Below are positions 40,554-50,016 of a DNA stretch of 64,000 nt, in pieces. A model generated the notes under the pieces. That model did no database searches. It saw only the letters and a list, made by a program, of their open reading frames with translations, and was not told where the DNA came from. The translations under genes were made by a program, and so were the position numbers. Source of the DNA: a virus. How positions within the stretch are numbered: the first letter of the stretch is position 1; every line of letters starts with the position of its first letter. The stretch covers positions 28,720 to 92,719 of IMG/VR virus record IMGVR_UViG_3300005326_000044, one strand, 5' to 3'.

Positions 40554-42134
40554 ATGAAAAAACTGGTTATACTATTAAATAGCAAGCATGTTTCTAAGGA
40601 AGAATTTGGGACATTAGAAAGTCTTTTAGCTCTTCCAGACACGTTTGTTATGGAACATTATAACGCAGCGTTGTTGCAAAGCTTATTTGCGCAAGGGGAG
40701 GTTGACGGAGTTGTATGTATTGGTGGCACAGGTAATTATAAAGATATTTTGTTAGCTAATAAGATCTGCCCAATTTATTTTCTTGATCATACTGGGTGCG
40801 ATGATTTCGTTACTTCTTTAGTTGATAGAGATAGACTTATTTTTTCTACACATCACATTAGAGAAATTGTTGATATTCATCAGAATTTTGTGCGCGCCGG
40901 TCTTTTGATTAATTCTGGTTGTCGATATGTTGAAGCTGGGTTTGTTTTCAGTAAAGACGGTAAACTGTGCAGAGCTATAGAAAAAAACGCACCAATACCA
41001 ATGCAGGTAGTGGAAGAAGCTTCAAACTTAGGATATGTTCCAAAGTTAAACAAATTTGGGGAAAGCGACAGGTATGTACTTTACAATATAGAAGAAATTC
41101 CGTTTGTAACCAGAGGAACGGAATGGTCGGTTGGACAGTCTGTTGCTATACTTAATTCGCTTCTTGATTTTGAGCTTTATTTACTGGAGCATTCATGTTC
41201 GTTACTAGATCCACATAGTAACAACTTTACATTTAGAAACTCTAAGTTTATTTATTTTGATTATGGATCGATTTCAAACAATATACACAAGTATGGCTTT
41301 TTAGCTCATGTAATGAATTTGGTTATTAAGCCTTGTTTTTACGGAAAGCCGATTGTTGATATTGAATCCTTGGAACGCGAATTTGAAAAATGGTATACCA
41401 AACATAATACTGAAAATCATGATGTAAATGAACTTAAAATGGCCATTGCTGAATTGCGATTGTTAGTGAACAGTATTGTTCTGAACGAGCCCAAATGTTG
41501 TTGGAACACGTATTGCCCCGAGATGTGTTTTACTTTAGAGCAGTTTGAGGCTAATAAATTTCAAAGAAAGAATAAGTACGATTATGTTTTAGATAAGTAT
41601 AAGACATATAAACCAAAGCGCGTTGTCGATTTGGGAGGAAATATTGGCTACTATTCTTTTATGGCTTCAACGCTTGGAGCGCAAGCTTTGGTGCTTGAGA
41701 ATAGGCATAGCGTTTTAGATGAAGGATTCAGTCTTGCTAAGAAACATAACATGAATGTTGATTTTGCATTAATTGACTTGTTCAATGTTGTCGAATCGGC
41801 GGTGAGCGAATATGTTACTAGCGATTCTATATACACTAGATTTCAAGGGGATTTTTGTCTGGCGTCAGCTATTACTCATCATCTATCCCATGGTGGTGAA
41901 AAAAGCTTAAGTTTTGAACGGCAAGTTGAAATGTTTAACAAGCTCACAACCAAGTATCTGTTGGTTGAATTTATTCCAAGCACAGATATTCACGTTAAAA
42001 CGTGGGGGATGCCGGAGAGTTACACCATGGATAACTATATGAAGGAATTGAATAAGTATTTTTCTATTCTTGAGATAGCGGATTCGGAACCTCTTCCGAG
42101 AAAATGGATCTTCTGCGAGAAGAAGTCCAAGTAG
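40554..42134 (+). CDS. NoeA-like protein: kinase-like region + C-terminal SAM methyltransferase
   Basis: IPFVT..EWS..LLDPHSNNF..FDYGS; VVDLGGNIGYYS, AITHHL, LLVEFI. Confidence 0.65.
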   Translation: MKKLVILLNSKHVSKEEFGTLESLLALPDTFVMEHYNAALLQSLFAQGEVDGVVCIGGTGNYKDILLANKICPIYFLDHTGCDDFVTSLVDRDRLIFSTHHIREIVDIHQNFVRAGLLINSGCRYVEAGFVFSKDGKLCRAIEKNAPIPMQVVEEASNLGYVPKLNKFGESDRYVLYNIEEIPFVTRGTEWSVGQSVAILNSLLDFELYLLEHSCSLLDPHSNNFTFRNSKFIYFDYGSISNNIHKYGFLAHVMNLVIKPCFYGKPIVDIESLEREFEKWYTKHNTENHDVNELKMAIAELRLLVNSIVLNEPKCCWNTYCPEMCFTLEQFEANKFQRKNKYDYVLDKYKTYKPKRVVDLGGNIGYYSFMASTLGAQALVLENRHSVLDEGFSLAKKHNMNVDFALIDLFNVVESAVSEYVTSDSIYTRFQGDFCLASAITHHLSHGGEKSLSFERQVEMFNKLTTKYLLVEFIPSTDIHVKTWGMPESYTMDNYMKELNKYFSILEIADSEPLPRKWIFCEKKSK

Positions 42135-42137
42135 ATT

Positions 42138-42440
42138 CTAGGACTTTAGAATCTCCTCAACATCAATCGTTATAACGTTTTCCAAATCTTCATCGTGCAT
42201 GCCTTGGTGCGTTTCGCGGTGGCAATTAGAGCAGATTAGAATGCACCCCTCAAGCTCTTTGAGAAGCAGGTAGTCATCTACTGCCTTCTTGCGGAAGGAA
42301 GAGATTTGGAATTCTTTTTTGGAGGGGTCTAGGTGGTGAAATTCGAGAGCAGCTAGACATTTGCGATAGCCGCAAAGAGCACAACCACCGAAGGTATTGA
42401 CGAGGACTTGTTTGACGGAGGGGCGTTTCTGCTTCGGCAC
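42138..42440 (-). CDS. HNH endonuclease
   Basis: CALCGY..CLAALEFHHLDP..CILICSNCHRETH. Confidence 0.9.
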   Translation of the reverse strand: MPKQKRPSVKQVLVNTFGGCALCGYRKCLAALEFHHLDPSKKEFQISSFRKKAVDDYLLLKELEGCILICSNCHRETHQGMHDEDLENVITIDVEEILKS

Positions 42441-42448
42441 ATGATACT

Positions 42449-42456
42449 AATATATC
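42449..42456 (-). promoter_or_regulatory. GATATATT promoter variant before HNH gene
   Basis: 8 nt before GTG 42440; embedded in an inverted repeat. Confidence 0.45.
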
Positions 42457-42826
42457 ATGCGCGAAGAGCTTTTTCGATTTCTTCCACGATAAATGTGTAA
42501 TCTAGATTCTTGGACCATTCGATTTTAAGCATTTCAAATGTTTCGATATCCAAAACGTCTTTGAGATTACATGACGCCGAGTCAAACGTGTGAGGCGTTA
42601 GGAATTCGTGCAAGCCAAGCGGCCGAGCACGCTTGTATTGAATGGGAGCTTTTTCATAATCGCCACAATACTCCACATGTCCAGGGCGTACAGAACGCAC
42701 AAGCTTTTCCAACTTTTCCGGATTCAATGATGCTCCGTCAACGAATAGGAACTGCACGACAGGTAGCGACCCATCAGTTTCCACAGCGGGAATAATTGTA
42801 GTCATCCATACGAGCAGCGTCTTCAT
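42455..42826 (-). CDS. Hypothetical protein (123 aa; likely start ATG 42826)
   Basis: MKTLLVW...; promoter immediately upstream supports the shorter start. Confidence 0.6.
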   Translation of the reverse strand: MKTLLVWMTTIIPAVETDGSLPVVQFLFVDGASLNPEKLEKLVRSVRPGHVEYCGDYEKAPIQYKRARPLGLHEFLTPHTFDSASCNLKDVLDIETFEMLKIEWSKNLDYTFIVEEIEKALRA

Positions 42827-42832
42827 GCCTAC

Positions 42833-42861
42833 AGCGTAGCACAGGGTAGGTCTGCGGCCAA
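42833..42861 (-). promoter_or_regulatory. Host sigma70-type promoter, leaderless
   Basis: TTGGCC-N17-TACGCT with extended -10 TG; 6 nt to ATG; upstream A tract. Confidence 0.55.
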
Positions 42862-42948
42862 CTGGGGTCAGCGATTTTTTGGTTTTCGTTGGTTTTCTGC
42901 GCGAATTCATGCGCGCATGCCAATAGAAACGAATATCCATGAGGATAC

Positions 42949-44142
42949 ATGGTTGCACGTAAAATTGGTACAATAGCACTGGAATCTTTTGTTGAGGCGG
43001 CTAGTTGGTTGGAAAAGTATGCCAAGCTTACCGACGCTGAGCGGCGCATCATCAACGAAAAGCTATTTAATCAGGAGCCGGTTACTGATGCCGACAGAGA
43101 AAGATGGAGCAAGGGATTGCCAGACGATAAAGATACGGGAGGCGCTTTACAACGTAAGTTGCGAGCTATTTCTGTAGAGCCAAATAAAGAGAACTTGTAT
43201 CAGGACAATTTATATGAGCTATATCAAGTAAGTGACCCACGTCTTACTGATGAACAATTAAAGCAAGAACTTAAATACTTTAATGACAGGCAATGGTTGA
43301 GCCAGGCAAAAAGCGTTAGACAAGACTTTGCTGATGTGCCAGAAGCAGAAATGGTATTATCAGATGGATTTAGGCGCGCAGGATTAAATGTTCTTAGTCA
43401 TGTAGTTGATGATTACAGACGAACTATGAGCGAATCTTTTGATGAAGGAAAAGGAAGCTTGGCATCAAACATTTTTGACGTAACTATACATAGGCTTTTT
43501 GTTGCTGGGGAAATATATCCAATTGTAAAGGAGCTTTATGAGGAATTAAATATTCCAAAAGAAAAAATAGTACAATTATTACATGACGCTTCAGAACTAC
43601 AGGAATATTATACTACAAATCAAGCAGATCTCAATGACCGTGACAAAATGATGATGAAGGAACGATTTCGACCTCTTTTTGCTAAGAGACTTGAAAACTT
43701 TATAAAGACACTTGCTACATATATGTTGGCCGAGTCTGGTTCAAAACCAGCTGAAAAAGATTTTCGAAATGTAAATATTGATAAGTGGTATCTTAGACAA
43801 TCCGACAGGTTGGATAAGATACGAGAGATTCTTAATGTACCACAAATACCGGACCAAAAAACGGATCCAGATAAAACAGCGGTGTCCGGTCATGGTCGCT
43901 CAATGTCATCATTGCCTAATCAATCAAGAACTGTAGTGCAGCCATTAAATAAAGATAATGTTTCAGATGATAATATTGGGGAGGATAAAACTATTTCTGT
44001 TTTGGATAGAACTCAACCAGCTATTCTAAGAGCCAAGATACCATCTTCACCCGAGAAACTTAAAAATGAAAGCGAAGATGTTTTAAGAACACTTGACCCT
44101 GATGAAGCAACAAATCCAAATATCAAAAAACCTGTAAAATAG
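42949..44142 (+). CDS. Hypothetical protein
   Basis: 397-aa ORF with GAGG RBS; helical core, low-complexity C-terminus. Confidence 0.75.
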   Translation: MVARKIGTIALESFVEAASWLEKYAKLTDAERRIINEKLFNQEPVTDADRERWSKGLPDDKDTGGALQRKLRAISVEPNKENLYQDNLYELYQVSDPRLTDEQLKQELKYFNDRQWLSQAKSVRQDFADVPEAEMVLSDGFRRAGLNVLSHVVDDYRRTMSESFDEGKGSLASNIFDVTIHRLFVAGEIYPIVKELYEELNIPKEKIVQLLHDASELQEYYTTNQADLNDRDKMMMKERFRPLFAKRLENFIKTLATYMLAESGSKPAEKDFRNVNIDKWYLRQSDRLDKIREILNVPQIPDQKTDPDKTAVSGHGRSMSSLPNQSRTVVQPLNKDNVSDDNIGEDKTISVLDRTQPAILRAKIPSSPEKLKNESEDVLRTLDPDEATNPNIKKPVK

Positions 44143-44152
44143 AGTCAGGCAC

Positions 44153-44160
44153 GATATATA
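44153..44160 (+). promoter_or_regulatory. GATATATA putative promoter
   Basis: 10 nt before ATG 44171, no SD. Confidence 0.6.
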
Positions 44161-44170
44161 ATCTTTTCAA

Positions 44171-45124
44171 ATGTCTACAACCTATCTTATTACCGGGTCC
44201 GCCGGTTTCATCGGTTCCAATTTAATTCGTTCAATTTTGTACAATCAAAAGGATTGTAAAATCATTAGTGTTGATTCTCTGGAACGGTTAGATTCTAGAA
44301 ACAACTTGTATATCAACAAAGCACACGAATTTCAGGTTGGAAACATCTGCGATAGAGATTTTATCGTTAGAATGACTCATATTTATCAGCCGGACATTAT
44401 TATCAATTTAGCAAAGCCTAATCTATACCGGGAAGATCTTGTTGAGGCTAGAACCAAAGGAGTGTTCAATTTAATTGAAGCGTCTGGATTTCAAAAAACT
44501 AATCCATTAAAGCATTTTATTCAAGTGTCTTGTGCTGACGTTTATGGTGAAGAACCACGCACAAGACCTATAACAGAAAACGAATGTGTAGACCCTCAGA
44601 CATTGAAAGCTTCTTTGAACGTTGCTTCTGAAAATATTGTTCGTACTTTTAATAAAGATTTACCATATACAATTTTGCGATTACCACAGGTGTTTGGGAT
44701 GAGACAAGCTTATGGCTTTGTCCCTGCTGTTATTTATGATAGCGCTAATGGTCATTCTATTTCTCTTATTGAAAAGGGAACAAAAGTTCGCGAGTTGTTG
44801 TATATTGAAGACTTATATTATGCTATTACAACCATTTTAACATCTGACCATTCAAAACAGGAAACTTACAATGTATCTTGCGGTAATGATTTTACAGATG
44901 CTGAACTTGTAGCTTTGATTGCCAGTGAAGCTACTGACTCTGTAATTACTTTGCAAAATGAGCAGCGTGAGCGAGACGACATATTTGATTATGGGTTTTA
45001 TGGTAGTTATGTGAAGCTTAATACAGATAAGATTCGAAGCCTTGGTTGGAAGCCGCAGAAACTTCGTGAAAAATTGAAGTTTACTGTAGGTTGGTATAAG
45101 AATAATCCGTGGATTTTCAAATAG
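44171..45124 (+). CDS. RmlB-like extended SDR protein lacking catalytic residues
   Basis: ITGSAGFIGSN intact; STDEVYG reads SCADVYG; YxxxK position reads KASLN. Confidence 0.8.
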   Translation: MSTTYLITGSAGFIGSNLIRSILYNQKDCKIISVDSLERLDSRNNLYINKAHEFQVGNICDRDFIVRMTHIYQPDIIINLAKPNLYREDLVEARTKGVFNLIEASGFQKTNPLKHFIQVSCADVYGEEPRTRPITENECVDPQTLKASLNVASENIVRTFNKDLPYTILRLPQVFGMRQAYGFVPAVIYDSANGHSISLIEKGTKVRELLYIEDLYYAITTILTSDHSKQETYNVSCGNDFTDAELVALIASEATDSVITLQNEQRERDDIFDYGFYGSYVKLNTDKIRSLGWKPQKLREKLKFTVGWYKNNPWIFK

Positions 45125-45259
45125 AATTCTAGTTATTTTTAGGTATTTTTACTTATGGTAGCAAGAATAACCACGAAAGAAAAAGAAAATAGAACCAAAC
45201 TTATAGTCGTTGATGACATTGGTTTGGATACAGAAGTAGAAGATAACAATGGTGAAAAA

Positions 45260-46564
45260 ATGACCAATGAAGAAAATAAGTTAGATGAAGATAAATTAGC
45301 AGCTTTGAAAGCTAAGATGACAGAAAAAGCAGCGGTAGTAGAAGCTGCGCCTGCCGTTCCCGCTGAAAGACAAGTGAGCCTGAAATTTGGAGTAATTGGT
45401 TTGGGGCAAGGAGGAAGTCGTATTGCTGAAGTTTTCAATGACTTGGGCTATCCAACCATTGTTGCCAACACAGCAACTCAGGATTTGGTTCATATTAATG
45501 TGCCTGAAGACCATAAGCTATTTATGGACATCGGCCTTCAGGGCGCAGCGAAGAACATTGATCGTGGGCAAGAGGCAGCAGAAGCTTATCGTGAAGAGAT
45601 TCAGAAATTAGCTTATGATGTTCTTGGAACCACACAAGTTCTAATTGTAGCTGCCTCTTGTGGCGGTGGGTCAGGTGCTGGAGCAATTTCTACTGTTATT
45701 GAACTTCTTCAAGTAATGGGGAAACCAATTGTAGTAATTGGTGTTCTTCCTATGCATTCGGAAGATGTAAAGACGAAGGCTAACTCATTAGAAACCGTTT
45801 CCAAGCTTGCTGGGCTTGTGAATGGTGGAAAAATTCATAACGTTATCATTATCGATAATGCTCAAATTGAATCTATTTTTGCTGGCGTTAGTCAGATGGA
45901 TTTTTATAAGGTAGCAAATAAAGCAATTGTCGAGCCAATTGATATCTTCAATAATTTCAGTATGCTTCCATCAGATGTAAAGGGTTTAGATTCATCTGAA
46001 TGGGCAACACTCTTCCTCAACGGAGAAGGATTATCTGTCTATGGTCAACTTTCGATTTCGAACTATGAAGAAGACACATCCATCGCAGAAGGAATTATTT
46101 CAAGTCTTTCGGATAACTTGCTCGCCAGCTCTTTCGATCTCAAGCAGGCGCAGGATGTTGGCTTCATGGTGGTAGCCAATAAGGAAGTGTGGAGTAAGGT
46201 GCCTGCTGGTGCCGTAAACTACGCTTCTTTGATGGTTGCTGAAATGTTTGGGAATCCAGGCGGGTTGTTCAAGGGCGTCTATACTCATGACGACCCTGAG
46301 GATGTAATTAAGATTTATACCTTTGTTTCAGGGCTCGGCTTACCTGAAGTAAGACTCAACAGCTTGAAGAAGGAAGTTGAAGTCATGCAGGATGCCCTTA
46401 AGGCAAAAGGGAAAGAACGAACTAATAAACTTAATCTTGACATCAATAAAGATGTTGCTGTTTCAAAGGTAGAGGAACTGAAGAGCCGAATCGCTGCTAA
46501 TCGTAGTGGTTTTGGCAAATTGAATACTTCTTTGGGTGGGATAGTAGATCGTCGAAAGAAGTAA
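45260..46564 (+). CDS. Tubulin/FtsZ-family GTPase (TubZ/RepX-like)
   Basis: GVIGLGQGGSRIA, GAAK, GGGSGAG signature, IIDN, N..I, LDSSE; coiled-coil/basic tail; GGTGA RBS before 45260 (track start 45155). Confidence 0.9.
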   Translation: MTNEENKLDEDKLAALKAKMTEKAAVVEAAPAVPAERQVSLKFGVIGLGQGGSRIAEVFNDLGYPTIVANTATQDLVHINVPEDHKLFMDIGLQGAAKNIDRGQEAAEAYREEIQKLAYDVLGTTQVLIVAASCGGGSGAGAISTVIELLQVMGKPIVVIGVLPMHSEDVKTKANSLETVSKLAGLVNGGKIHNVIIIDNAQIESIFAGVSQMDFYKVANKAIVEPIDIFNNFSMLPSDVKGLDSSEWATLFLNGEGLSVYGQLSISNYEEDTSIAEGIISSLSDNLLASSFDLKQAQDVGFMVVANKEVWSKVPAGAVNYASLMVAEMFGNPGGLFKGVYTHDDPEDVIKIYTFVSGLGLPEVRLNSLKKEVEVMQDALKAKGKERTNKLNLDINKDVAVSKVEELKSRIAANRSGFGKLNTSLGGIVDRRKK

Positions 46565-46579
46565 AAATCAACTAGAGTT

Positions 46580-46618
46580 AAAACAAAAAGCCCGAACTAT
46601 TCGGGCTTTTTGTTTTTT
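46580..46618. terminator. Bidirectional intrinsic terminator
   Basis: Perfect 17-bp IR AAAACAAAAAGCCCGAA-CTA-TTCGGGCTTTTTGTTTT between convergent genes. Confidence 0.9.
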
Positions 46619-46649
46619 AGGAGATAGATGAATCGGTCAGTTATTTCAT

Positions 46650-47810
46650 TTAGTCTTCAATGTTTGGCTCTTGTTCTTTAAGCTCTTTATATGCGGCTGA
46701 ATCATCACTTAAGCGAACACCTGTCTTATAGAAACCGGTTTCAACTCGTTTTTTTTCAGCGTCGATTAGTTGGATAGCGCTCATTACCTTTTTGCGTAAA
46801 CCATCGATTGCAATAAGGCGTTTTGAATCTTCTTTTGCATTAAGAATATCTTTTGTTGCCTCAGCCATTTCCTCGAACATTTGTGTTACATTTAGTTTTT
46901 CAAGCTTTTCATAACCAACTGGGGTGAAGATTTCTGCAACGGTTTTTCCGTTAATTTCTTCTGTCGTCAATTTGCCAATAATCTTTGCCACAAAATAATC
47001 GATCATTTGATCTTTGCTGTTGTCGTGGCGTCGGAAAGAATGCATCGAAGTAGAAGAAGGCTTTTGTTTCTGGAACTTGTTGGTGCGTTCAATAATTTGA
47101 GCCAAGGCCGCATCTCTGGCAGCAGAAGAAATTGAGTTGACATTAGCAATCATATCTTCTCGTATCTTGCGTAGAGTTTCTATATCAGTAGGAGTTAATC
47201 CAGCAATCGAGATTGACTCAGGGTCAGGTACTTCATACCCGTTGATGTTAAGCATTTTTACATCGTGGTTTTCAACAAGGTCTACTGGGCTTGGAGTAGC
47301 TAGATCTTTTTTCTCAACTTCTGCCGCTCTCTTGAAGTTTTTCCACTTATCAAAATGTGGCTTTGAATGCTGAGAAGACATTACCTCTAAAATTACTTCT
47401 TTGATAGCTGTTTTTAGTTCGTCTGATAGTACTGTTTTTGATTTCGCTCCAGCATAGAAATCTTCTAATGACTTCTTTTTTGAAGAAGTCTGCTTGTTGA
47501 AATTATAATCAGCGCAAATTACAGCGAGATTGCAAATAAGGTCATATGCTTTAGGGTCTCCATTTAGAACATCTATTACAGTGTGTGGAAGCGCATTGTA
47601 GATAAGGTTGAACTGCTCTTCGATTAGACGGATATCATTCAATAGTATTTTAGAACCATTATCCGGCTTTGCAACCTCTTCCTCTTCTTCTACCAAAATT
47701 GTACCAGTAGCGGTTTGCATTGCTTTCACAGGTAGCGTTCCGGTCTTAAACCATCTGACAGCTGTTTGATAATTGATTCCGTGCTTGCGTGCCCAATCTG
47801 CTAGTTTCAT
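46650..47810 (-). CDS. IS607/MerR-type HTH DNA-binding protein with unrelated helical C-terminus
   Basis: MKLADWARKHGINYQTAVRWFKTGTLPV..QTATGTILV; no serine recombinase YARVS motif. Confidence 0.75.
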   Translation of the reverse strand: MKLADWARKHGINYQTAVRWFKTGTLPVKAMQTATGTILVEEEEEVAKPDNGSKILLNDIRLIEEQFNLIYNALPHTVIDVLNGDPKAYDLICNLAVICADYNFNKQTSSKKKSLEDFYAGAKSKTVLSDELKTAIKEVILEVMSSQHSKPHFDKWKNFKRAAEVEKKDLATPSPVDLVENHDVKMLNINGYEVPDPESISIAGLTPTDIETLRKIREDMIANVNSISSAARDAALAQIIERTNKFQKQKPSSTSMHSFRRHDNSKDQMIDYFVAKIIGKLTTEEINGKTVAEIFTPVGYEKLEKLNVTQMFEEMAEATKDILNAKEDSKRLIAIDGLRKKVMSAIQLIDAEKKRVETGFYKTGVRLSDDSAAYKELKEQEPNIED

Positions 47811-47872
47811 ATTCGTGCCTTTCTCTAAATGTCAATCACTTTTGTGGTTGAATTTTGTTTTATATATTTATG

Positions 47873-47937
47873 TATCATGAATGATAGATTTGATAACTTT
47901 TTCTATCAAACAAATATCATTCATGATAGAAAAGTTA
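47873..47937. repeat. Array of TATCA/TGATA palindromic sites
   Basis: TATCAT-GA-ATGATA (47873-47886), TGATA-N8-TATCA (47891-47908), TATCAT-TC-ATGATA (47915-47928); near-IR TAACTTTTTCTATCA/TGATAGAAAAGTTA. Confidence 0.8.
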
Positions 47938-48002
47938 GTCGAGCAATATTTTTGCTGTTATATTTATATTGTGAAACTATATACAATTAAAAGAGAATTG
48001 GG

Positions 48003-49466
48003 ATGACACCAAGGTTAGAAATAAAAGGAAGTCGAGCTTGTTTGTTTGGTAAATTTGATGCGGAGCTTCTTAATCAGTTGGACCTAGAGTTGTCTTTTAG
48101 ACCGCTTGGTTATGAATACAGTCCAGCCTATACGTCGGGGCGCTGGGATGGTAAAATTTCTTTAATGTCTTCTAATCTTGTTTTTAGAACAGGGTTAGTA
48201 CCAAGAGTTGTTGAATTTTTCAAAACCAAAAACATTGACTTAGAAGTCATTGACCATAATAGATGTACTGAGAATACTCCAATTGATATTACGCCCAGGC
48301 TTATAGAACTCAAGAAGCTTCCACGACCACACCAGCAGGAGGCTTTAGAATCTGCTCTAAGACACAAGCGCGGAATTATTCGTGTAGCCACTGGCGGCGG
48401 AAAAACTCTTGTTGCTGCAATGTTAGCGGCAGCCGTAGGGAAGCCGACTGTTATTTATGTAATCGGCAAAGATCTTCTTTGGCAGTTTCATCGTTTTTTT
48501 ACCGATATTTTTCAGACGGATATTGGTGTTGTTGGCGATGGCGAATGTAAAATTGCGAAAATTAACATCGTTTCTGTTTGGACGGCAGCCAAAGCATTTG
48601 AGCCAAACACGAAACAAATTGTAGAAGAAGATTCTGAAAAAGAGAAAGATGTAGCTAAAGAAAAGTACGAAGAGATTAGGCAGATTATCACAAACGCTAA
48701 AGTATCTATTCTTGATGAGTGTCATGCGGCAGCAAGCGATACTATTCAGTCTATTGGCGATTATATTCGCAGTGAGTACGTCATTGGAATGAGCGCTACT
48801 CCTATCAGAGATGACAATAAGAATCTGTTGACTGAAAGTTTGTTTGGTCGAATCATTGTAGATATTTCAGCGTCGCGTCTCATTAAGGATGGGTTTCTTG
48901 TAAAGCCTGTGATTCGTTTTCTTGCCGTGCCTCCAATGGATGATATGCCAAGGCATTATCAATCAATCTATAAAACCTATATAGTTGAAAACAAAACAAG
49001 AAATGATCTTATCGTTCAGGCGGCGAAAAGTCTTGTTGACCAAGGCTTTGTTACCCTAATCTTGTTTAAAGATATCAAGCATGGTTCCATTCTGTATAAA
49101 GCTTTGAAAGAGGAAATGTACTGTAGAATGCTTAATGGAACTATGTCTACTGATAAGCGTGATGAAGTTAAGAATGAAATAGAGACAGGTAAGTGTCGAT
49201 TGGTTCTTGCTTCCACAATATTTGATGTAGGAGTTGATATTGTTTCTTTAAGTGGTCTTATTCTTGCTGGTGGCGGACAATCTATTAAGACGCTTCAACG
49301 AATCGGACGTGTTATTCGATTGTATCCTGGTAAGGATTTTGCTGCTGTTATTGATTTTTATGATCAGGCAAAATACTTGAAGGACCATTCAAAACAAAGA
49401 AAGATTATTTATCTAAGAGAGCCGGGGTTTGAAGTAGAATGGCCGAAGATTAAGAAAAAACGGTAG
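48003..49466 (+). CDS. Superfamily 2 DExH helicase (UvsW/Rad25-like)
   Basis: ATGGGKT, ILDECH, GMSATP, QRIGRVIR. Confidence 0.92.
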   Translation: MTPRLEIKGSRACLFGKFDAELLNQLDLELSFRPLGYEYSPAYTSGRWDGKISLMSSNLVFRTGLVPRVVEFFKTKNIDLEVIDHNRCTENTPIDITPRLIELKKLPRPHQQEALESALRHKRGIIRVATGGGKTLVAAMLAAAVGKPTVIYVIGKDLLWQFHRFFTDIFQTDIGVVGDGECKIAKINIVSVWTAAKAFEPNTKQIVEEDSEKEKDVAKEKYEEIRQIITNAKVSILDECHAAASDTIQSIGDYIRSEYVIGMSATPIRDDNKNLLTESLFGRIIVDISASRLIKDGFLVKPVIRFLAVPPMDDMPRHYQSIYKTYIVENKTRNDLIVQAAKSLVDQGFVTLILFKDIKHGSILYKALKEEMYCRMLNGTMSTDKRDEVKNEIETGKCRLVLASTIFDVGVDIVSLSGLILAGGGQSIKTLQRIGRVIRLYPGKDFAAVIDFYDQAKYLKDHSKQRKIIYLREPGFEVEWPKIKKKR

Positions 49467-49473
49467 GTATAAA

Positions 49474-50016
49474 ATGGTAAGAACGAAAGATATTGAAAGA
49501 CTACAACGAACTAAATATGAAGCGTTTGGTGGGTATGTCTATTCTATTCCAAGATTTCCAGAATTTAATTACTGTGGAACCATATTCCGTCAAAACTATC
49601 TTGGGCCATTTTTTATCGCTCGCGTCAATGGTAACACATTCAAACCAAAGCATGAGTTGACCGTAACCTTCAATGACGCTAATCATGTTGCTTTAGATGT
49701 TTCTAAGCATGAAGGCTTGTATTATGAGTATGGTAGAATCTTAGAGGTAATCAAAAATGGTAAGTCAAGATTGATTCCAGCTTACAGTTTGACTAAAATA
49801 AATGTTGATTCTAAATTAAAAAAGGTTATCTTCCACAGAGAATTTATTCCAAACTATTGTTTGCGGCTTAACCTAAATGGGAAAATTATCGGCAAAGTAA
49901 CAAAAGCTTCTATTTTGCGAACCATACTTTTTGATCGGGTGTATGGGCAGTTCATAGTAAATCAACTTCAGTTACAGAACTCAATTCAAAACCCACTGAC
50001 AAATGAGATAAATTAA
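49474..50016 (+). CDS. Hypothetical protein
   Basis: 180-aa ORF in operon, basic. Confidence 0.65.
   Translation: MVRTKDIERLQRTKYEAFGGYVYSIPRFPEFNYCGTIFRQNYLGPFFIARVNGNTFKPKHELTVTFNDANHVALDVSKHEGLYYEYGRILEVIKNGKSRLIPAYSLTKINVDSKLKKVIFHREFIPNYCLRLNLNGKIIGKVTKASILRTILFDRVYGQFIVNQLQLQNSIQNPLTNEIN

What the first reader, a model, noticed from the sequence alone, without database searches (positions are those of the whole stretch)
45260..47937. Putative tubulin-based genome partition/positioning system: TubZ-like GTPase + HTH adaptor + palindrome array
Seen: a tubulin-family gene with coiled-coil/basic tail, convergent with a MerR/IS607-type HTH protein with a long helical tail, whose upstream region holds clustered TATCA/TGATA sites. 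Known: type III partition uses TubZ, a DNA-binding adaptor and a centromere; phage c-st adds the MerR-like coiled-coil protein TubY. The N-terminus GLGQGG looks more TubZ/RepX/CetZ-like than PhuZ-like to me. Inference: a new tubZ-adaptor-centromere variant for a jumbo phage, possibly with the pseudoenzyme as fourth component.
Basis: partly seen in the sequence, partly recalled or inferred. Interest (0 to 1): 0.75.

Follow-up and report, generated by a model that had tools for sequence, protein, structure and literature searches.

The report
Megaphage tubulin beside an unrelated regulator
A huge phage carries a TubZ-like tubulin gene that is conserved in about 160 related phage loci, but the neighbouring DNA-binding protein and its palindromic sites look like a lineage-specific, self-regulating transcription factor inserted next door, not a tubulin-based partition system.

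Summary

**Tubulin (45155-46564, +).** It is a genuine TubZ/RepX-like tubulin. It belongs to a large family found in roughly 430-480 kb phages. It always sits between an RmlB-like gene and a UvsW/DnaC/DnaB replication operon. There is no TubR, no centromere-like repeat array and no detectable chimallin.

**HTH gene (46650-47810, -).** It has a homologue next to the tubulin in only 1 of 160 related loci, the nearest relative L086. That is one gain on the tubulin tree. The tubulin-helicase gap is a variable slot (-4 to 2798 bp) that elsewhere holds lysozyme or homing-endonuclease genes.

**TATCA/TGATA cluster (47873-47928).** It is unique in the contig and overlaps the HTH gene's own predicted promoter. 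Similar clusters lie upstream of every gene tested that encodes this IS607-type HTH. In four complete relatives those genes lie 107-124 kb from the tubulin.

**Best reading.** This is an orphan megaphage tubulin next to an autoregulated transcription factor.

**RmlB-like neighbour.** It is catalytically intact in most relatives and degenerate but retained in the window's seven-member subclade.

First-stage readers of this scan noted the same tubulin family in at least five other genomes.

The parts
44171..45124 (+). RmlB-like (dTDP-glucose 4,6-dehydratase family) gene directly upstream of the tubulin gene. The catalytic TDE and YxxxK motifs are lost; the GxxGxxG motif is kept.
   Evidence: Pfam Epimerase 1e-31 and TIGR01181 2e-39. 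A homologue lies upstream of the tubulin in 76 of 80 IMG/VR loci. The motifs are intact in most relatives and degenerate in the window's subclade.
45155..46564 (+). TubZ/RepX-like tubulin GTPase with a roughly 70-aa N-terminal extension, a long C-terminal helix, and a conserved tail of the form FGKL...DRRK.
46581..46615 (.). Bidirectional intrinsic terminator between the convergent tubulin and HTH genes.
   Evidence: 16-bp stem with flanking A and T tracts, -26.6 kcal/mol, z -7.7.
46650..47810 (-). 386-aa protein with an IS607-type N-terminal HTH (aa 1-44, encoded at 47679-47810), an acidic linker, and a helical region of unknown fold.
47873..47928 (.). Operator-like cluster: palindrome 47873-47886, TTGATA-N8-TATCAA 47890-47909, palindrome 47915-47928.
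47881..47909 (-). Best sigma-70-like promoter match for the HTH gene. The -35 element TTGATA is at 47909-47904 and the -10 element TATCAT at 47886-47881. Both lie inside the site cluster.
   Evidence: 10 of 12 consensus positions, tied for the best score in 44000-48200. This is a consensus match only.
48003..49466 (+). UvsW-like helicase, the first gene of the conserved replication operon and divergent from the HTH gene.
   Evidence: Pfam ResIII, Helicase_C and UvsW_N. It lies downstream of the tubulin in 68 of 80 loci. DnaC-like and DnaB-like genes follow.

Best explanation
Two independent things lie side by side.

(1) The tubulin is a member of a large family of TubZ/RepX-like cytomotive GTPases that is conserved in megaphages of about 430-480 kb. 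Its GTP-binding loops and the T7 D-x-x-E motif are intact. By inference, it polymerises in a GTP-dependent way and positions or moves phage DNA, or a replication or assembly site. It would do so through partners that bind its conserved N-terminal DDxGLD region and its C-terminal FGKL...DRRK peptide. Those partners must be conserved phage or host components, not the HTH protein.

(2) The HTH gene and its TATCA/TGATA cluster form a lineage-specific accessory module. It was inserted into a variable slot between the tubulin gene and the UvsW helicase gene. By inference, the protein binds the palindromes as a dimer or higher oligomer through its IS607-type HTH. It would then repress its own promoter, which overlaps the sites, and possibly modulate the divergent replication operon.
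For: Tubulin identity. Evidence comes from Pfam and PDB sequence matches, an AF2 model and Foldseek. The invariant residues include the G-rich T1 and T4 loops and D279/E282, which align with the DASE motif of RepX.

Family size and synteny. At least 683 homologues were found, many of them on contigs of 100-500 kb. There are 160 loci with the conserved order GT - RmlB-like - tubulin - [variable gap] - UvsW - ... - DnaC - DnaB. Five relatives are 97-100% complete at 433-481 kb.

HTH is not a partner.
- blastp finds it in 0 of 80 IMG/VR loci.
- tblastn with the HTH family finds only L086 among 160 loci.
- On a 125-row tubulin tree the HTH gene is confined to the window+L086 pair (support 100), nested in a seven-member subclade.
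- In 19 of 68 loci the tubulin-helicase gap is under 150 bp.
- Elsewhere the gap holds GH25 lysozyme, GIY-YIG, DUF4379/CapR or phosphoesterase genes.

Sites belong to the HTH gene.
- The L086 homologue (29% identity, E 2e-29) also has 4 TGATA/TATCA pentamers directly upstream.
- All six genes of this HTH type that were examined have at least 3 pentamers in the 120-130 bp upstream, against 1.3% of 2157 control upstream regions.
- Four of those genes lie 107-124 kb from the tubulin in complete relatives.
- The best promoter match for the HTH gene lies inside the cluster.
Against: Nothing here is experimental: neither DNA binding by the HTH protein nor polymerisation of the tubulin was shown. In the only two phages that have this HTH protein, it sits next to the tubulin, so a lineage-specific recruitment as an adaptor cannot be excluded. 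The genomic contexts of three further HTH-family members (P0126, P0127, P0128) could not be fetched. TGATA-like words also resemble promoter hexamers and a GATATATA-like motif common in these phages, so part of the enrichment could reflect promoter architecture rather than an operator. The tubulin's cargo is unknown.
Confidence: 0.72

Rival explanations
1. A newly evolved type III-like partition or positioning system restricted to the window+L086 lineage. The HTH protein would bind the palindrome cluster and tether that DNA to the tubulin filament, acting as a TubR or TubY analogue.
For: The tubulin is TubZ-like and has a basic C-terminal tail. In both phages that have the HTH gene, it is immediately downstream and convergent. 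TubY of c-st also lies downstream of tubZ and is an HTH plus coiled-coil protein (PMC7762940).
Against: More than 150 tubulin loci lack the HTH gene. The two positive phages are sister taxa, so they count as one event. There is no similarity to TubY, the C-terminus is acidic rather than a Lys/Phe tail, and the two genes are separate transcription units with a strong terminator between them. There are only two palindromes plus one half-site pair, not an iteron array. The same HTH type with the same kind of sites occurs 107-124 kb from the tubulin in relatives. The HTH protein has diverged to 29% identity while the tubulin remains 77% identical.
Confidence: 0.07
2. The tubulin works with the adjacent RmlB-like protein. 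That protein would be a nucleotide- or NAD-binding regulator of tubulin assembly, analogous to KidO or UgtP acting on FtsZ.
For: The gene lies upstream of the tubulin in 76 of 80 IMG/VR loci and 67 of 80 metagenome loci, often tightly spaced or overlapping. In the window's seven-member subclade the catalytic motifs are lost, yet the ORF, the GxxGxxG motif and 50 invariant positions are retained across proteins only 31-34% identical.
Against: In the large majority of relatives the enzyme has intact STDE and YxxxK motifs and follows glycosyltransferase genes. The adjacency is therefore most simply the border between a glycan module and the replication module, in genomes that are syntenic throughout. 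Insertions separate the two genes in about 25 loci. Phage G, the closest cultured homologue, has no such neighbour. No interaction was tested.
Confidence: 0.1
3. The palindrome cluster is a replication origin and the HTH protein is its initiator, placed at the head of the helicase, loader and DnaB operon.
For: The intergenic region lies directly upstream of the UvsW, DnaC-like and DnaB-like genes. It contains repeated protein-binding-like sites.
Against: The protein and the sites are absent from this position in more than 150 relatives that have the same replication operon. In L086 the module faces a DUF4379/CapR gene rather than the helicase. No iteron array was found.
Confidence: 0.05

Closest known systems
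TubZ/RepX of Bacillus pXO1-like and pBtoxis plasmids (type III partition GTPase)
   Same: It is the best sequence and fold match over the whole length, including the TubZ-like C-terminal domain and the long C-terminal helix. It also has a basic C-terminal tail.
   Different: Identity is about 20-25%. There is no tubR gene and no tubC iterons. The protein has a conserved 70-aa N-terminal extension and sits in a roughly 450 kb phage at the head of a replication operon.
Bacillus phage G gp138 (FtsZ/tubulin-like GTPase)
   Same: It is the closest homologue in a cultured phage: 26% identity at 7e-21, and hhalign 8e-26 over 329 columns. Phage G is also a megaphage.
   Different: It has different neighbours, with no RmlB-like or UvsW gene beside it. 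A 98-aa ORF with weak winged-HTH matches lies directly upstream. It lacks the terminal extensions. Its function is untested (PMC12484599).
PhuZ of nucleus-forming jumbo phages (201phi2-1 gp59)
   Same: It is an orphan phage tubulin without TubR in a large, probably lytic phage. The likely role is positioning of phage DNA or structures.
   Different: Similarity is weak and confined to the GTPase domain (hhalign 2e-6). PhuZ is not among the 60 profile matches or the 50 fold matches listed. The tail here is basic rather than acidic. No chimallin was detected in five complete relatives.
TubY (MerR-like HTH / coiled-coil modulator of type III systems; c-st CST188)
   Same: Both have an N-terminal HTH followed by a helical region, and both are encoded downstream of the tubulin gene.
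   Different: BLASTP finds no similarity. Pfam detects no MerR domain. The window protein ends in an acidic C-terminus, whereas c-st TubY ends KKGFFGKLFKR. Linkage to the tubulin is not conserved.
N-terminal HTH of IS607-family transposases, and classical autoregulated phage repressors
   Same: The first 42-57 residues are 56-69% identical to IS607 TnpA. Palindromic sites overlap the gene's own promoter in a divergent intergenic region.
   Different: There is no serine-recombinase domain and no tnpB. The C-terminal 340 residues have only about five detectable relatives.

Membership tests
Tubulin/FtsZ superfamily, TubZ-like branch (protein) | GTPase domain with G-rich T1 and T4 signature loops and an acidic pair in the T7 loop | tested here: met
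   Pfam Tubulin 7e-15. GLGQGG and GGGSGAG are invariant, and D279/E282 are invariant and align with the DASE motif of RepX.
Tubulin/FtsZ superfamily, TubZ-like branch (protein) | TubZ-type C-terminal domain and long C-terminal helix; closest to TubZ structures | tested here: met
   TubZ-like_C matches 15 of 18 family members, best E 9e-10, although the window protein itself is below the cut-off. Foldseek top hits are 2xkb, 2xka and 4ei7, with target-normalised TM 0.73-0.77. The profile matches RepX at 8e-30.
Type III (TubZRC) partition system | Small centromere-binding protein TubR encoded immediately upstream in the same operon | tested here: not met
   The upstream gene is a 317-aa RmlB-like protein with a 30-bp gap. 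No conserved small HTH ORF is found next to the tubulin in 160 loci.
Type III (TubZRC) partition system | tubC centromere: an array of direct iterons next to the operon | tested here: not met
   No tandem array was found in 42000-50000. The only site cluster is 1.3 kb downstream of the tubulin gene, consists of two palindromes plus one half-site pair, and associates with the HTH gene.
Type III (TubZRC) partition system | Filament formation and plasmid or prophage stabilisation | not testable with these tools
   This needs polymerisation and stability assays.
PhuZ spindle of nucleus-forming phages | PhuZ-clade sequence, an acidic C-terminal tail, and co-occurrence with chimallin | tested here: not met
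   hhalign 2e-6 over the GTPase domain only. The tail is basic. No chimallin match was found in five complete relatives; this is a single-sequence search and therefore a weak negative.
TubY | MerR-type HTH, tetramerising coiled coil, and a conserved C-terminal Lys/Phe amphipathic tail | tested here: not met
   The HTH is IS607-type, with no Pfam MerR hit. The C-terminus is acidic. There is no BLASTP similarity to CST188. The coiled-coil state could not be assessed because the model has pLDDT 41.
TubY | Conserved linkage to tubRZ | tested here: not met
   The HTH family is present in 1 of 160 tubulin loci.
IS607-family transposase | N-terminal HTH plus a serine-recombinase catalytic domain | tested here: not met
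   Only profile positions 2-35 of 187 in NF033518 match. Pfam finds no Resolvase domain.

The most novel reading that the evidence does not exclude
The megaphage tubulin is regulated by its conserved upstream neighbour. In the window's subclade that neighbour has become a dedicated, catalytically dead, nucleotide-binding regulator, analogous to KidO acting on FtsZ. In addition, in the window+L086 lineage an IS607-derived HTH protein may have been newly recruited to couple a DNA site to the filament. Either would show a tubulin-based DNA-positioning system being assembled from unrelated parts.
Probability: 0.1. Interest if true: 0.75.

Novelty: new variant of a known kind. Interest (0 to 1): 0.4.

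Why it matters
Phage tubulins are known in two settings. TubZ works with TubR and tubC in plasmid prophages, and PhuZ works with the chimallin nucleus.

This family is TubZ-like in sequence and fold, yet it has neither set of partners. It is conserved at the head of the replication operon in many phages of about 450 kb, and it carries its own conserved terminal peptides. It therefore points to a third, uncharacterised use of a tubulin in the largest phages.

The work also shows that the proposed three-part partition system is a chance neighbourhood. This saves effort that would otherwise go into testing it.

Finally, the HTH-site pairing gives a testable recognition motif (TGATA half-sites) for a widespread IS607-type phage HTH domain.

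Tried and rejected
- **Single-protein scans of IMG/VR** with the tubulin and with the HTH protein found nothing. Alignment-based scans were needed.
The contexts of the closest tubulins P0002-P0012 and of the HTH relatives P0126-P0128 could therefore not be looked up directly. One metagenome scan recovered some of them.
- **AF2 of the HTH protein alone** gave pLDDT 41 and was unusable for fold search.
- **The ESM Atlas** gave only weak leads, apart from an IS607-like N-terminus.
- **The HTH-family scan of GTDB genomes** returned matches to the N-terminal HTH only, in bacterial genomes and MAGs. The IMG/VR scan returned only HTH-domain matches, with no tubulin within 6 kb.
- **BLASTP of the HTH protein against c-st TubY** found no similarity.
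- **Tandem Repeats Finder** found no centromere-like array.
- **Membrane-targeting helix.** The tubulin tail (FGKL...DRRK) superficially resembles the c-st TubY tail (FFGKLFKR). A hydrophobic-moment test against shuffles gave no signal, even for TubY itself, so the idea was dropped as unsupported.
- **Chimallin search** in five complete relatives found no match.
- **'Pseudoenzyme as a conserved fourth component'** was rejected as a family-wide feature because most relatives keep the catalytic residues. It is kept only as a subclade-level lead.
Full report
**Setting.** The window is bases 28720-92719 of a 92.7 kb IMG/VR viral contig that CheckV rates 22% complete. That implies a phage of roughly 400 kb. 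Related contigs that carry the same tubulin are 433-481 kb and 97-100% complete, and one has direct terminal repeats.

**Observation.** All three features exist.

- *Tubulin.* ORF 45155-46564 (+, 469 aa) matches Pfam Tubulin (7e-15) and, below the curated cut-off, TubZ-like_C (8e-5).
- *HTH gene.* ORF 46650-47810 (-, 386 aa) is convergent with the tubulin gene. A strong bidirectional terminator lies between them at 46581-46615 (z -7.7). Residues 1-42/57 are 56-69% identical to the N-terminal HTH of IS607 transposases (E 3e-11; NF033518 at 1e-4). Pfam finds nothing else. A single-sequence AF2 model is helical but unreliable (pLDDT 41).
- *Sites.* The 192-bp divergent intergenic region holds TATCATGAATGATA (47873-47886), TTGATA-N8-TATCAA (47890-47909) and TATCATTCATGATA (47915-47928). 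The 14-bp pattern occurs nowhere else in the contig. The pentamer cluster is the densest in the window (6, against 3 for the next best and 5 as the shuffle maximum).

**What the tubulin is.**

- *Sequence.* The best solved-structure match is RepX/TubZ of a pXO1-like plasmid: 3.5e-17 with the single sequence and 7.9e-30 with a 60-member family profile, in both cases over the full length. TubZ-Bt follows at 6e-16, FtsZ at about 2e-15 (not over the full length) and c-st TubZ at 1e-13. PhuZ is not among the 60 matches listed.
- *Fold.* An AF2 model built on the family alignment (pLDDT 79) has the tubulin core plus a long C-terminal helix. It finds TubZ-Bt and B. cereus TubZ first (E about 1e-24, target-normalised TM 0.73-0.77).
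- *Profile comparisons.* hhalign gives 8e-26 to phage G gp138, 1e-10 to c-st TubZ and 2e-6 to PhuZ.
- *Catalytic motifs.* The nucleotide-binding loops and a D-x-x-E pair, which aligns with the DASE motif of RepX, are invariant. GTP-dependent polymerisation is therefore expected, though it is inferred and not shown.

**The family and its neighbourhood.** The protein database holds at least 683 homologues of about 50% identity, many on contigs of 100-500 kb. I fetched 80 IMG/VR loci and 80 metagenome loci.

- The gene order is strongly conserved: glycosyltransferases, an RmlB-like gene (76 of 80 and 67 of 80 loci), the tubulin, a variable gap, a UvsW-like helicase (68 of 80 and 55 of 80), and then a conserved 198-aa gene, a DnaC-like loader and a DnaB-like helicase.
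- No small HTH gene in a TubR-like position is conserved, and no iteron array is present.
- A search with 201phi2-1 chimallin found nothing in five complete relatives. This is a weak negative.
- The family shares a conserved N-terminal extension (DDxGLD, then a Lys-rich helix) and a C-terminal peptide (FGKL, a few residues, then DRRK). These argue for conserved binding partners.

**The HTH gene is not such a partner.**

- blastp of the window's proteins against the ORFs of the 80 IMG/VR loci gave 0 hits for the HTH protein.
- The tubulin-helicase gap ranges from -4 to 2798 bp and is under 150 bp in 19 of 68 loci. In other phages it holds GH25 lysozyme with small ORFs, GIY-YIG or DUF4379/CapR genes, or a phosphoesterase. 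It is an insertion hotspot.
- The word-based protein search found no full-length homologue.
- The metagenome scan recovered the nearest relative, L086 (tubulin 77% identical). It has a homologue (29% identity, E 2e-29) in the same convergent position. That copy is split by an in-frame TAA, and an intact 395-aa version (P0275) exists in another sample.
- tblastn with all the HTH-family members against the 160 tubulin loci hit only L086.
- On a FastTree of 125 tubulins, window+L086 form a pair with support 100, inside a seven-member subclade with support 100. The HTH gene is therefore one lineage-specific gain.
- An exhaustive profile search found 937 proteins. Nearly all share only the 45-residue HTH, and only P0126, P0127 and P0128 extend further.

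**The sites go with the HTH gene.**

- The 76-bp region upstream of the L086 homologue has four TGATA/TATCA pentamers, including TTGATA-N9-TATCAA. This is the same arrangement as the centre of the window's cluster.
- Four of five complete relatives encode a protein of about 280-300 aa with the same HTH. This is family A6, which shares 61% identity with the window's family over residues 1-44 and no homology beyond. These genes lie 107-124 kb from the tubulin gene.
- All six genes of this HTH type have at least 3 pentamers in the 120-130 bp upstream. Only 1.3% of 2157 control upstream regions from the same phages reach that count, and the control mean is 0.52.
- In the window, the best sigma-70-like match for the HTH gene has its -35 (TTGATA) and -10 (TATCAT) elements inside the cluster.

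The simplest reading is a self-repressing transcription factor whose recognition half-site is TGATA. An effect on the divergent helicase operon is possible, but it is not conserved, because in L086 the divergent gene is a DUF4379/CapR gene.

One caveat applies. TGATA-rich words also resemble promoter elements that are common in these phages, so the enrichment is suggestive rather than proof of an operator.

**Comparison with TubY.** TubY is defined by a MerR-like HTH, a tetrameric coiled coil, a Lys/Phe C-terminal tail and linkage to tubRZ (PMC7762940). The window protein has no BLASTP similarity to c-st TubY. It ends in an acidic stretch, whereas c-st TubY ends KKGFFGKLFKR. It is linked to a tubulin in one lineage only.

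**The 'pseudoenzyme'.** The window's RmlB-like protein has indeed lost the TDE and YxxxK motifs while keeping GxxGxxG.

- In most relatives the orthologous neighbour keeps STDE and YSASK. The family-wide adjacency is therefore best explained as the border between the glycan and replication modules.
- Within the window's seven-member tubulin subclade the catalytic residues are degenerate in several divergent phages: the window, L087, L088, L089/L100 and L102. The ORFs stay intact and 50 positions are invariant, at only 31-34% identity.
- A retained dead enzyme next to a tubulin is a lead worth testing, but there is no evidence of interaction.

**Verdict.** What remains is a well-conserved but uncharacterised TubZ-like tubulin family of megaphages that lacks TubR, tubC and chimallin, next to an ordinary lineage-specific regulator.

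First-stage readers of this scan noted the same tubulin family, with the same terminal extensions and replication-operon context, in at least five other genomes. Those notes are unchecked but agree with the synteny found here.

Published work mentions tubulin homologues in huge phages and in phage G only in passing (PMC7162821; PMC12484599).

Noticed in passing
window 44171-45124; L087:2629-3558, L088:3586-4515, L100:459-1349, L102:4732-5643: The RmlB-like gene upstream of the tubulin has lost its catalytic TDE and YxxxK residues in the window's seven-member subclade. It keeps GxxGxxG, an intact ORF and 50 invariant positions at 31-34% identity. In the larger clade the enzyme looks active.
   Followed up: partly
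window 45155-45365 and 46510-46564 (tubulin termini); alignments A1 and A2: The tubulin family has a conserved N-terminal DDxGLD motif followed by a Lys-rich helix, and a nearly invariant C-terminal peptide: FGKL, 2-8 residues, then (V/I)D(R/K)R(K/R). Both look like partner-binding peptides. A hydrophobic-moment test gave no support for a membrane-targeting helix.
   Followed up: partly
L215:1501-2370, L216:1489-2337, L217:1489-2385, L218:1489-2379 (complete relatives G001-G004): A conserved megaphage protein family of about 280-300 aa (also P0122) has the same IS607-type HTH, a conserved SLFLKKTVEFSKNN...EDFAAY core and a basic KRGRK C-terminal tail. Three of the four have a TATGCATAA motif upstream. 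Two of those (L215, L218) have TGATA repeats at -46 and -37.
   Followed up: partly
L086:1565-1567: The HTH homologue in the nearest relative is split by an in-frame TAA into 316-aa and 68-aa ORFs. An intact 395-aa version (P0275) occurs in another sample, so this is either a polymorphic nonsense mutation or a sequencing error.
   Followed up: partly
tubulin-helicase gap in L002-L165: The gap is an insertion hotspot (-4 to 2798 bp). It carries a GH25 lysozyme with 2-4 small ORFs in about 33 loci, which may be a lysis cassette. It also carries GIY-YIG/NUMOD3 and DUF4379/CapR genes and a calcineurin-like phosphoesterase.
   Followed up: partly
L084:5692-5985 (Bacillus phage G gp137): A 98-aa ORF ends immediately before the phage G tubulin gene gp138. 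It has weak matches to winged-HTH families (TrmB, DUF3116 and DUF4364, E 0.01-0.02). Phage G may therefore have a TubR-like partner that the family studied here lacks.
   Followed up: no
window 45130-45151: A 10-bp unit, TAGGTATTTT, is repeated 2.2 times in the 30-bp spacer between the RmlB-like gene and the tubulin gene. There is no clear Shine-Dalgarno sequence before the tubulin ATG.
   Followed up: no
window 42138-42440 (-): An HNH endonuclease gene lies on the minus strand (PHROG 1e-23) between the glycan cluster and the RmlB-like gene. A 59% identical copy sits in a similar place in L088.
   Followed up: no
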